Shown one piece after another: positions 23,701-26,700 of a DNA stretch of 34,290 nucleotides (position 1 is the stretch's first letter; each line of letters starts with the position of its first letter). Position numbers: made by a program. The stretch comes from a virus. The DNA is taken from the UHGV virus genome UHGV-1987335; one strand, given 5' to 3'.

Positions 23701-26700
23701 TCCAGACTTTCAACTAACAATGTAGTTCCTGGCAATATATAACCATGCTCTATAGCATCTAAAAATTCCGAAAAAGCTCCTGATTGTGCATGCTTTCCTT
23801 TGAATGCACTTAATCCTAAATCTTCATATGTTATGGTATCAAGATAATAATCACTATTTACCTTTAACCATTCAGCAATAAGTCTTCTCTGTCGGTTTAA
23901 TGAGTCGCCAGACATCTGACCTGGTGATGAAAATCGCATATATGCTATGGCTTTTTTCATGGTGACACCTGCTAACGTATGCTTTTATAAACCTTAGTGG
24001 TGGGATATAATTTTTGTTTAATTTTTATTTAAAAAGACAATTAAGGTCACATTATCTTGAATATACAACAATAATCGTATTGCAATTTTCTTACGCCATA
24101 ATCTTGAAAGCACAAAAGAATACATAAAAAATAAAGACATTAACAAAAAGCATAAAACGAGGCTCATATAAATATAAGAGCCTCCATATTTTAGTCGTTT
24201 AGAAACAAATTATTTTAATGTGGTGTGCTTCGTGACAATAAATTAATAACCAACACACCGGCACAAATCAACATCATGCCTATAATGGCTGGCAGGTCCA
24301 GCCGTTGGCAGAAAAAATCCCCATGACAGTAAGCTAATCAGGACAATACCGACTCCTGACCAGATACCATAAGCAATCCCTGTAGGAATATAAGCCAGCG
24401 TCTGAGCTAATAACCAGAATGATGCACAATAACAAATAATTGTACCAACAGATGGCCATAACCGTGTAAAACCTTCTGAAAACTTCATTAAGGTTGTACC
24501 AATGACCTCTGCAAGTATTGCACCACCAAGATAAATATAAGGGTTCATAGCATATTCTTTCCTGTTCAAACTGGAGAGAATTGTACTACAGTTTGAACTC
24601 AACTCACCTGTTTCATCATTGTGTTCCCATTGATGTTCTTTTATATACCCTCAGTACCCGTTTCATCGCGGCACTCTGGCGACACTCCTTAAAAATCAGA
24701 TTCGTGCTCACCTTTCCTTCCCGTTCTTCTCTGGTAGCGAACCGGTAATACACCGTTCGCCAGACCTTACCATCAACGACCAGGATTCTGGTTACGGTTG
24801 CACCTGTTACCGCGGCAACGTCCTGTGCACAGAAGCTCTTATGCGTCCCCAGGTAATGAATAATTGCCTCTTTGCCCGTCATACACTTGCTCCTTTCAGT
24901 CCGAACTTAGCTTTGATTTCTGCGATCTTCGCCAGAGCCTGTGCACGATTTAGAGGTCTACCGCCCATGACAGGAAGTTGTTTTACTGGTTCAGGTATCG
25001 CCTCACCACGGTTAATTCGCGCGGTCATACAGGACAGTTCATCGGCAGCCTTGCGCCGTAATTCCGCGTCAGTCAGCGCATTGGCCCGCATGTTCTGGTA
25101 CAAGTTGGTAACCAACCAGTAATGCGCGTTCGATTTCCACGGATAAGACTCTGCATCCGGATACAGGCCACGCTTCCGGCAATACTCGTAAACCATATCA
25201 ACCAGCTCGCTGACGTTTGGCAGCCCGGCGTTAACAGATGCTTCTTCCCGGCACCAGGCGACAAACTGCCCGGGTGATGGCAGGAATGGTCGATTCTGCC
25301 GACGGGCTACGCGCATTCCAGCGTTAACCTGTTCCATTGTGGTGATCCCGTTTTCCCGGAAAGCCAGAACCCACTGGCGGCGGATTTCGTTCAGTTCATT
25401 CTGGTCACGGTTAGCCAGGCTCGCCGGGAAAGTTGCCAGTAACTGGCTGAACACACCGTTGATGATCTGCGCTACCTGCTGTACCTGTGGCTTTTCGTCG
25501 TACTGTTCCGGCATGTTGTTGGCGATCCGGCGCATCTGCTCACAGTCAAAGTTAACCATCTGTGCGGCGATGTTTTTCATAGCTCCACCCCGTAAATCCA
25601 GTCAGTGTTCGTCAGGTCGAGTTTTGGTTTGCCGGCTGTCACGCCAGCCTGTTGCTTGTTTCGGTTGATTTCGAGCTGGGTCCACTTGTCGCGGAGTTTG
25701 GCCGGACTTAGCACGTTACCGGACCAGAAGTTGTCCTGGCATGCCCAGCGGAACAGCACGCACATGTCGCGGTGGTTACGTCCGTCACGTTCACGCATCA
25801 GGCGGATATCGTTAGCCCACCCTGCAAAATTCGGTTTTCTGGCTGATGGCGCGATGGTCTTCACCATGTCAAACATCCACTCTGCGGCGGTCAGGTCTTC
25901 TGCTGTCCCCCACTTGCTGCCGCTCTGAATTGCAGCATCCGGTTTCACCACAGGAAGATCGTTTTCTGGTTGGTCAGAGGATTCGCCAGAATTCTCGGAC
26001 GAAAAAGGTTTTATATTGTCTTTTGTTAGTTTGTCTTTTGTGTTTACCTGATTCGGGTAAACGCCTTTACCTGATTTGGGTAAACTTTTTTTACCTGATT
26101 CAGGTAAATTTACCTCTTTCAGGTAAACTTTATTTTTCTTACCTGATTCGGGTAATGTTGACCATTCACTGACCACATTATTAATGCCGGTATTCCGCCC
26201 GCTCTGAATAAAAATCCCACGCTTTACCAGAACACTTTTTGCAGCAGAACACTTGTGCGGCAATATCCCGGTCAACTCGGAAAGTTGCTCGTTGCTCACC
26301 CAATCCAGTTTTTTATTAAAGCCATATGTTTTGCGCATGACAGCCAGGAAGACCAGAAGCTGGTGCTGTGTTAATCCGGCCAGCATCACAGCTTCCAGCA
26401 ACTCATTTGCAATGCGCGTATAACCATCATCGAGATCTGCCACACGCGGCTCCTTTTGTGCCGCATCCGGCACTGGAAAATTGAATATCTCAGCAGTGTT
26501 TGCCATAATTCCTCCCGCAATGAGTGTGTTACGATTTGCACCTGAAAGTCGGTTCTGTTCCCGCAGACCGACTTTCGCCATTTTTGAACCTGTCATATTG
26601 CCCCCAGCATGGTGGTGACCATCGCCATCAATGGACCAGCCAGATCCGGGTCCACTCGAAACATCGACACAATGCCTTCACTCATCTCCTTCAGTTTCTG

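What the first reader, a model, noticed from the sequence alone, without database searches (positions are those of the whole stretch)
24215..24548. emrE disrupted by a frameshift at a homopolymer, removing the fourth TM helix
The ORF follows the canonical EmrE sequence through ...LISLLSWGFF and then leaves frame beside a run of six T (minus strand; plus 24312-24317). The +1 frame continues exactly with the expected EmrE C-terminus (QRLDLPAIIGMMLICAGVLIINLLSRSTPH, stop at 24215). As written the protein ends with an unrelated 21-residue tail and would lack TM4, which forms the dimer interface. This is either genuine pseudogenisation, a slippage-prone site, or a sequencing error.
Basis: partly seen in the sequence, partly recalled or inferred. 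Interest (0 to 1): 0.5.

Follow-up and report, generated by a model that had tools for sequence, protein, structure and literature searches.

The report
Inherited frameshift pseudogene of prophage emrE
The small drug-efflux gene emrE carried by this E. coli prophage is really broken by a one-base insertion plus an adjacent base change, and the same dead copy recurs in many independently sequenced strains, so it is an ordinary, already annotated pseudogene and not a sequencing error.

Summary
On the minus strand, emrE (24548->24215) matches EmrE through residue 79 (…SWGFF). It leaves frame at a T6 run (24312-24317) and stops at 24243-24245 after a 22-residue unrelated tail. TM4 and the natural stop lie intact in the +1 frame.

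The nearest intact allele (strain H1827/12) differs in the gene by two adjacent changes: T5->T6, and G->T two bases on (TTTTTCGG -> TTTTTTCTG). Restoring the frame at the run would therefore give G80C, not wild type.

The lesion is not an assembly error.
- The identical sequence is in 16 complete RefSeq E. coli records, where NCBI's PGAP annotation pipeline already marks emrE "frameshifted".
- The exact 101-aa product occurs on 480 contigs of the public protein collection.

Carriers fall into at least three chromosomal backgrounds. These differ by 14-18 differences/kb next to the prophage but only 0.2-1.0/kb in the ren–emrE–ybcN block. The dead allele has therefore spread horizontally with the DLP12-type lambdoid prophage.

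I found no sign of programmed recoding or phase variation. Best reading: loss of function through loss of the TM4 dimerisation helix (inferred, not tested). Already known; low interest.

The parts
24215..24548 (-). emrE pseudogene, from the start ATG at 24548 to the natural stop TAA at 24215-24217. It is 334 nt, against 333 nt in intact alleles.
   Evidence: PGAP annotates the identical sequence as 'emrE … frameshifted' in CLSC36, EC931, PK8276, QML220614, TUM1886 and LR-31.
24243..24548 (-). The ORF as written: 101 codons plus a stop. It encodes EmrE residues 1-79 (TM1-TM3, including Glu14) followed by a 22-residue out-of-frame tail, LPTAGPASHYRHDVDLCRCVGY.
   Evidence: The Pfam PF00893 match covers residues 3-79 and profile positions 2-78 of 93. 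The alignment to PDB EmrE covers residues 1-79. The tail has mean hydropathy -0.27, against 2.47 for the TM4 core.
24312..24317 (-). T6 run (A6 on the + strand), covering gene nt 232-237 and codons 78-79. The nearest intact allele has T5 here.
24310..24310 (-). Second change of the lesion: G->T on the coding strand, two bases after the run (CGG -> CTG). In the restored frame, codon 80 becomes TGC (Cys) instead of GGC (Gly).
24215..24310 (-). Displaced but intact coding sequence for loop 3, TM4 and the C-terminus, now in the +1 frame: CQRLDLPAIIGMMLICAGVLVINLLSRSTPH*. It contains the G90/I94/G97 dimerisation motif.
   Evidence: The role of TM4 and of G90/I94/G97 is taken from PMC6599891.
24616..24882 (-). 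ren, the prophage gene immediately upstream of emrE. This is context only. Here it carries an in-frame 12-codon deletion.
22434..24167 (-). ylcJ (24018-24167) and ybcK recombinase (22434-23960), the downstream neighbours of emrE in the DLP12-type cargo block. Both are intact here.

Best explanation
This is a genuine, heritable loss-of-function allele of emrE, the small multidrug resistance (SMR) efflux gene carried as cargo between ren and ybcK in DLP12-type lambdoid prophages integrated at the tRNA-Arg gene (annotated next to intD) of E. coli.

On a G61/V99 emrE haplotype, a compound lesion arose within 3 bp: +T in a T5 run, plus G->T two bases on. Translation from the unchanged start signals now yields TM1-TM3 plus 22 foreign, non-hydrophobic residues. 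TM4, which holds the antiparallel EmrE dimer together, is out of frame. The product should therefore be unable to form a stable transporter, and the gene should confer no efflux. That last step is inferred, not tested.

The dead allele then spread among E. coli lineages together with its prophage segment, by lysogeny or recombination. It now sits both in near-complete prophages, as in this window, and in decayed DLP12-like remnants.
For: Shown by tool results:
- The frameshift and the intact +1-frame C-terminus are in the sequence.
- Within the gene, only two adjacent differences separate it from the nearest intact allele. Including them, only 4 mismatches plus 1 gap separate the two haplotypes over 3.6 kb.
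- Upstream sequence is identical to intact alleles over the 501-nt query.
- Homology to SMR/EmrE stops at residue 79.
- The identical lesion is in 16 complete-genome records, all annotated 'frameshifted' where I looked.
- The exact 101-aa ORF product occurs on 480 contigs from five source collections. A derived variant (P0003: A42T, P55S) occurs on 37 contigs.
- The adjacent chromosomal block fimZ–folD differs by 14-18 differences/kb between three carrier backgrounds. The ren–emrE–ybcN block differs by only 0.2-1.0/kb.
- Prophage architecture differs among carriers.
- Most genomes with the same chromosomal flank as CLSC36 lack the allele.
- Isolated lambdoid phages carry in-frame emrE at the same position, so the gene is mobile phage cargo.

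From the literature: TM1-3 form the substrate-binding domain, TM4 is the dimerisation domain, and G90/I94/G97 are functionally critical (PMC6599891).
Against: - There are no read-level data for this particular assembly.
- There are no expression or phenotype data, so loss of function is inferred from architecture alone.
- The pseudogene carries no second disabling lesion, and its expression signals are intact. It is therefore either young or not fully neutral.
- Its abundance is higher than expected for a random dead allele: 480 contigs, against 743 for its intact parent allele P0017. That may reflect sampling or hitch-hiking.
- Low-level ribosomal +1 shifting anywhere between gene nt 212 and 303 would give a full-length product. 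This cannot be excluded computationally.
Confidence: 0.9

Rival explanations
1. Sequencing or assembly error at a homopolymer: the real gene is in frame.
For: The insertion lies in a homopolymer, the classic site of indel errors. A few singleton +T alleles in the protein collection (for example P0005 on one 18-kb contig, and P0014) could be errors of that kind.
Against: - The same compound lesion, an insertion plus an adjacent substitution, is in 16 complete-genome records from different laboratories. A homopolymer miscall does not explain the substitution.
- The same product occurs on 480 contigs from several source collections.
- The window is 100% identical over 20 kb to four independent genomes.
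- T6 is a short run.
Confidence: 0.02
2. Recoding: a proportion of ribosomes shift +1 at UUU_UUU_C, or RNA polymerase slips on the T6 run, so that functional full-length EmrE (G80C or a loop-3 variant) is still made. On this reading the gene is down-tuned, not dead.
For: - tRNA-Phe can re-pair from UUU to UUC in the +1 frame (my reading of the sequence).
- A G-rich, Shine-Dalgarno-like UGGGGA lies just upstream, loosely recalling the prfB site. That resemblance comes from my own knowledge and was not tested.
- The target frame is open from gene nt 212, so any +1 shift before nt 304 ends at the natural stop.
- Non-programmed frameshift suppression in E. coli can total 1-10% for some single-base deletions (PMC10861913).
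- Expression signals and the TM4 coding sequence are intact.
Against: - The frameshifted state is not conserved. Only 16 of 3,693 complete-genome records with emrE carry it, and all near relatives are in frame.
- The A-site codon after the run is CUG, which by my own knowledge is the commonest and fastest-decoded Leu codon, so there is no pause to drive a +1 shift. The accompanying G->T in fact removed the rare CGG codon that a plain +T would have placed there.
- Selection against transcriptional slippage in many bacterial genomes becomes evident at runs of about 9 A/T, well above 6 (PMC1088944).
- The cited suppression study concerned -1 events, not +1.
Confidence: 0.05
3. Phase-variable contingency switch: the T run expands and contracts at high frequency, turning emrE on and off.
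For: The lesion is at a mononucleotide run. Separate +T frameshift alleles on A61 backgrounds (P0008, P0010, P0014) suggest the run is a recurrent insertion site.
Against: - All 16 carrier records have exactly T6 followed by CTG, and intact alleles have T5.
- No one-step intermediate or revertant appears among complete genomes. It would have scored 98.7%, where the next hits after 100% are at 97.4%.
- The in-frame G80C revertant protein is absent from about 15 billion proteins.
- By my own knowledge, tracts of 5-6 nt are below the lengths typical of contingency loci.
Confidence: 0.02
4. The truncated three-helix protein has a function of its own, for example as a dominant-negative partner of other SMR proteins or as a membrane peptide useful to the phage.
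For: - The ORF keeps its start signals and Glu14.
- The allele is fairly abundant and has spread across lineages.
- No second disabling mutation has accumulated in the main allele.
Against: - The tail arises purely from a frame change.
- The tail varies among cluster members (…CVGY, …CVDY, …CVSH, …LYRCVGY), with no sign of constraint.
- CLSC36 has only one emrE copy, so there is no partner to poison (places_in_record = 1).
- Hitch-hiking on the prophage explains the spread without invoking selection.
Confidence: 0.03

Closest known systems
EmrE (MvrC) of E. coli K-12, an SMR-family transporter encoded in the DLP12 cryptic prophage (PDB 3B5D, 7MH6 and others)
   Same: - Same locus, ren–emrE–ylcJ–ybcK, in a lambdoid prophage integrated next to the tRNA-Arg gene by intD.
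- Residues 1-79 are identical except A61G.
- The displaced C-terminus is identical except G80C and I99V.
   Different: The reading frame is broken after F79, so TM4 and the C-terminal tail are not translated. The gene is 334 nt instead of 333 nt.
Intact G61/V99 emrE allele (WP_032202005.1; strain H1827/12; P0017, seen on 743 contigs)
   Same: The DNA is identical across the gene and its flanks except at the lesion. That amounts to 2 differences in 501 nt, and 4 mismatches plus 1 gap in 3.6 kb.
   Different: It has T5 followed by CGG, is in frame and encodes 110 aa.
The same frameshifted emrE as annotated in RefSeq (for example FK541_RS18875 in E. coli O1:H42 CLSC36 and G6G93_RS19095 in EC931)
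   Same: The sequence is 100% identical, and PGAP flags it 'frameshifted'.
   Different: Nothing differs in the gene. The prophage around it ranges from near-complete (window, CLSC36, TUM1886) to IS-disrupted remnants (EC931, PK8276, QML220614, LR-31).
emrE-carrying inducible or isolated lambdoid phages (PhiR34_1, PhiR68_2, PhiR70_1, Turner, 4A7, Perceval)
   Same: emrE sits directly after ren as phage cargo, at 97-99.4% identity over the 501-nt query.
   Different: None of the 12 phage records matches the frameshifted query at 100%. The three closest align over 500 nt to the 501-nt query, consistent with in-frame alleles.

Membership tests
SMR family / EmrE (Pfam PF00893) | Significant sequence match to the SMR profile | tested here: met
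   PF00893 scores 101.6 bits against a cut-off of 23.7, but covers only profile positions 2-78 of 93. The product is 78/79 identical to PDB EmrE over residues 1-79.
SMR family / EmrE (Pfam PF00893) | Conserved membrane-embedded Glu14 in TM1 | tested here: met
   …GGAILAEVIG… is present in the ORF. The role of Glu14 is taken from PMC6599891.
SMR family / EmrE (Pfam PF00893) | Four transmembrane helices in one polypeptide of about 110 aa, with TM4 carrying the G90/I94/G97 dimerisation motif | tested here: not met
   The ORF ends at codon 101 after a 22-aa non-hydrophobic tail. TM4 is encoded only in the +1 frame. This is therefore a pseudogene of the family, not a functional member.
SMR family / EmrE (Pfam PF00893) | Proton-coupled efflux of cationic drugs | not testable with these tools
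   This needs MIC or transport assays.
Programmed +1 ribosomal frameshift genes (prfB type) or transcriptional-slippage genes | The frameshifted arrangement is conserved among orthologues | tested here: not met
   Only 16 of 3,693 records with emrE carry it. The nearest relatives and all close phage copies show no sign of it.
Programmed +1 ribosomal frameshift genes (prfB type) or transcriptional-slippage genes | A slippery codon with a slow A-site codon or stop, plus a stimulator; or an A/T run long enough for polymerase slippage | tested here: inconclusive
   UUU->UUC re-pairing is possible and a G-rich stretch lies upstream. However, the A-site codon is the common CUG, and the run is 6 nt against about 9 nt in PMC1088944.
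Homopolymer phase-variable (contingency) loci | Tract-length polymorphism, switching on and off among close relatives | tested here: not met
   Every carrier has T6+CTG. No T5+CTG or T7 variant with the same flanks appears in 5,426 complete genomes. The revertant protein is absent from the collection.

The most novel reading that the evidence does not exclude
The frameshifted emrE may not be simply dead cargo. Two variants of this reading remain open:
- Loss of EmrE is itself advantageous, for example by avoiding proton leak or drug-specific sensitisation. That would explain why the allele has spread across at least three chromosomal backgrounds and is nearly as abundant in public assemblies as its intact parent.
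- A low rate of +1 shifting at UUU_UUU_C produces a small amount of a G80C or loop-3-variant EmrE, making this a naturally attenuated efflux gene.
Probability: 0.05. Interest if true: 0.35.

Novelty: already known. Interest (0 to 1): 0.12.

Why it matters
The practical consequence is small. Gene-presence screens for antiseptic or efflux determinants will score emrE as present in these strains, although the gene very probably does not work. Resistance-gene callers should check the frame at nt 232-240.

It is also a tidy example of a disabled cargo gene continuing to travel between E. coli lineages on a lambdoid prophage. It does not open any long-standing question.

Tried and rejected
1. One-step intermediates of the compound lesion.
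- An in-frame G80C protein and a plain +T protein on the G61/V99 background are both absent from the 15-billion-protein collection.
- No 98.7% hit to the 76-mer across the lesion turned up in complete genomes.
- The order of the two changes, or whether they were a single event, therefore stays unresolved.
- Plain +T alleles do exist, but only on A61 backgrounds and on few contigs (P0008, P0010, P0014, P0005). Some of these may be sequencing errors or metagenome chimeras.

2. The phage collection. Twelve lambdoid phages carry emrE, and none has this allele.

3. Literature. I found no paper that mentions this allele. The paraquat evolution preprint and the EAEC 042 genome paper mention emrE only in other contexts. 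The loop-3 paper PMC4294503 is not held, so I found no direct data on G80.

4. A clonal explanation, in which all carriers belong to one lineage. I rejected it because chromosomal flanks differ by 14-18 differences/kb between carrier groups, and most ST648-type genomes with the CLSC36 flank lack the allele.

5. Two Python calls failed only because of file paths and one because of a regex mismatch. All were rerun.

6. I did not fetch the other carriers listed (TUM17668, 300490, 20AR0300, F11, HCM-25C-3, Ch1; nor AH50, M25631H and Z226-7, which match CLSC36 at 100% over 20 kb). The count of three backgrounds is therefore a minimum.

Full report
**What is in the sequence**

On the minus strand an ORF starts at ATG 24548 and reads MNPYIYLGGAILAEVIGTTL…LISLLSWGFF. 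It then continues LPTAGPASHYRHDVDLCRCVGY to a TAA at 24243-24245, 101 codons in all. The run of six T is at 24312-24317, gene nt 232-237 and codons 78-79. From 24310 the +1 frame reads CQRLDLPAIIGMMLICAGVLVINLLSRSTPH and ends at the natural stop, 24215-24217.

Pfam's SMR model PF00893 matches residues 3-79 only, covering profile positions 2-78 of 93. A conceptual frame-repaired product matches the whole profile. The alignment to crystallised EmrE (3B5D and others) likewise ends at residue 79 and shows a single substitution, A61G. The 22-residue tail is not hydrophobic: its mean Kyte-Doolittle value is -0.27, against 2.47 for the TM4 core.

Minor corrections:
- The tail has 22 residues, not 21.
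- Residue 99 is V, not I.
- Residue 61 is G, not A.
- The restored frame starts with Cys80, not Gly80.

**Nature of the lesion**

The closest intact allele in complete E. coli genomes is in strain H1827/12 (WP_032202005.1). Within the gene it differs from the window by exactly two adjacent changes:
- one extra T in the run (T5->T6);
- G->T two bases later, so that TTTTTCGGCC becomes TTTTTTCTGCC.

Including these, only 4 mismatches and 1 gap separate the two haplotypes over 3.6 kb of ren–emrE–ylcJ–ybcK–ybcL. The lesion is thus a recent derivative of that haplotype. Upstream expression signals are unchanged.

I looked for one-step intermediates and found none on this haplotype.
- The in-frame G80C protein and the plain +T protein on the G61/V99 background are absent from the collection of about 15 billion proteins.
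- In a 76-mer search across the lesion, the hits drop directly from 100% (16 records) to 97.4%, which is two differences.

Plain +T frameshift products (…GFFRPTAG…) do occur on A61 backgrounds, on a handful of contigs (P0008, P0010, P0014, P0005). The run therefore appears to be a recurrent insertion site, although some of these may be sequencing errors.

**Real allele or artefact**

- The 501 nt around the gene are 100% identical in 16 complete-genome records. These represent 15 strains, because F11 is deposited twice. The strains come from humans, poultry, yak and hospital environments in several countries.
- In every carrier I opened, PGAP annotates emrE as a pseudogene, 'frameshifted'.
- The exact 101-aa product is on 480 contigs drawn from NCBI, MGnify, JGI/IMG, Logan and ENA. 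A derived form with two further substitutions (P0003) is on 37 contigs.
- The window itself is 100% identical over its last 20 kb to CLSC36, AH50 and M25631H, and virtually so to Z226-7.
- A homopolymer miscall would not reproduce the adjacent substitution.

Assembly error is effectively excluded.

**Context**

The window is a nearly complete lambdoid prophage of the DLP12 type, integrated next to a tRNA-Arg gene. Its right end is the end of intD. Its gene order is:
- tail, head and terminase genes;
- iss, the lysis genes, a porin, and quuD–rusA–ninE–ybcN;
- ybcM–ybcL–ybcK–ylcJ–emrE–ren–P–O;
- the immunity and recombination genes, then intD.

Isolated or induced lambdoid phages carry emrE at the same place after ren. 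emrE is therefore ordinary phage cargo. None of those 12 phage records carries the frameshifted allele.

**Distribution**

Carriers are not one clone. Over the adjacent chromosomal block fimZ–folD there are three carrier groups:
- CLSC36;
- TUM1886;
- EC931, PK8276, QML220614 and LR-31.

These groups differ from one another by 14-18 differences/kb. The prophage block ren–emrE–ybcN differs by only 0.2-1.0/kb in all pairs.

The chromosomal flank of CLSC36 is shared at about 100% identity by some 55 genomes, including strains named ST648. Only four of these (CLSC36, AH50, M25631H, Z226-7) have the allele.

The surrounding prophage also varies among carriers:
- complete in CLSC36 and the window;
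- a different immunity region and an element inserted in the capsid gene in TUM1886;
- reduced to different IS1- or IS3-disrupted remnants in EC931, PK8276, QML220614 and LR-31.

The simplest reading is that the lesion arose once. The segment carrying it then moved between lineages by lysogeny or homologous recombination between resident DLP12-type prophages, after which the prophages decayed independently. This is inference from the divergence contrast.

**Mechanism and consequence**

Scanning mutagenesis and structural work assign substrate and proton binding to TM1-3. They assign dimerisation to TM4, with G90, I94 and G97 functionally critical (PMC6599891). The ORF as written lacks TM4 and the C-terminus entirely. 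The expected result is a three-helix fragment that cannot form the stable antiparallel dimer, and hence no efflux. That step is inferred and was not tested here. In one search, CLSC36 shows a single emrE place in its record, so no second copy compensates there. Some other carriers show two places, which I did not examine.

**Rivals**

*Programmed or leaky recoding.*
- A +1 shift anywhere between gene nt 212 and 303 would reach the natural stop.
- UUU->UUC re-pairing of tRNA-Phe is possible, and a G-rich stretch lies just upstream.
- Against this, the frameshifted form is a rare derived state: 16 of 3,693 records with emrE.
- The next codon is the common CUG. The accompanying G->T removed the rare CGG that a plain insertion would have created.
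- Background frameshift suppression of 1-10% has been reported for -1 events (PMC10861913). A trace of full-length product therefore cannot be ruled out computationally.

*Phase variation.* This is contradicted by the complete absence of tract-length polymorphism or revertants.

*A new function for the truncated protein.* Nothing supports it. The tail varies freely among cluster members.

**Comparison with what is known, and novelty**

This is emrE of the SMR family in its usual prophage position. It meets the sequence criteria of the family but fails the four-helix criterion, so it is a pseudogene of that family. The identical sequence is already annotated as a frameshifted pseudogene in RefSeq, and its ORF product is already deposited in GenBank. 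The finding is real but already known and of low interest. The only mildly notable aspect is that the dead allele has spread across distant E. coli backgrounds with its prophage.

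Noticed in passing
window 24616-24882 (-), deletion junction near 24788: ren carries an in-frame 12-codon deletion plus an S->R change at the junction, giving 88 aa instead of 100 aa. Among the carriers compared, only the CLSC36-type prophage has it; EC931, PK8276, QML220614, TUM1886 and LR-31 have the 303-nt ren.
   Followed up: partly
window 1-34290 (= L003 502-34791): The whole window is a near-complete DLP12-type lambdoid prophage ending at intD next to a tRNA-Arg gene. Besides emrE it carries the cargo genes iss (about 15168-15461, +) and a porin (about 17236-18333, +). 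It is 100% identical over 20 kb to E. coli O1:H42 CLSC36, AH50 and M25631H, and virtually so to Z226-7.
   Followed up: partly
L002 3690-5216; L004 10030-10180: Decay in this cargo block is mosaic. H1827/12 has intact emrE but ybcK with an internal stop. A8 has intact emrE (an F78L allele that interrupts the T run) but a frameshifted ylcJ. The window has the reverse pattern.
   Followed up: no
protein cluster of P0001: Other frameshift products at the same site occur on different emrE backgrounds. Examples are the plain +T forms P0008, P0010 and P0014; P0005 on the F78L allele; P0007, which has the same …FFLPTAG tail on an A61 background; and a 111-aa double-shift form, P0004. Some may be independent events, recombinants or sequencing errors.
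   Followed up: partly
L008 36371-38243 (TUM1886): In TUM1886 the major capsid gene of the emrE-frameshift prophage is truncated and is followed by another tyrosine integrase with phage-like genes. Its immunity region (an S24 peptidase repressor) also differs from the window's XRE-type region.
   Followed up: no
window 24309-24324 (-): The RNA around the lesion reads UGGGGA-UUU-UUU-CUG: a G-rich, Shine-Dalgarno-like stretch a few bases before a codon pair where a +1 shift re-pairs tRNA-Phe. This superficially resembles the prfB frameshift site. It is inherent to codons W76-G77-F78-F79 of every emrE, so it is probably coincidence.
   Followed up: no
table (PK8276, QML220614, Z226-7, TUM17668): Several carriers of the frameshifted allele have a second emrE-like place elsewhere in the chromosome, presumably in another lambdoid prophage. 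I did not check whether that copy is intact.
   Followed up: no
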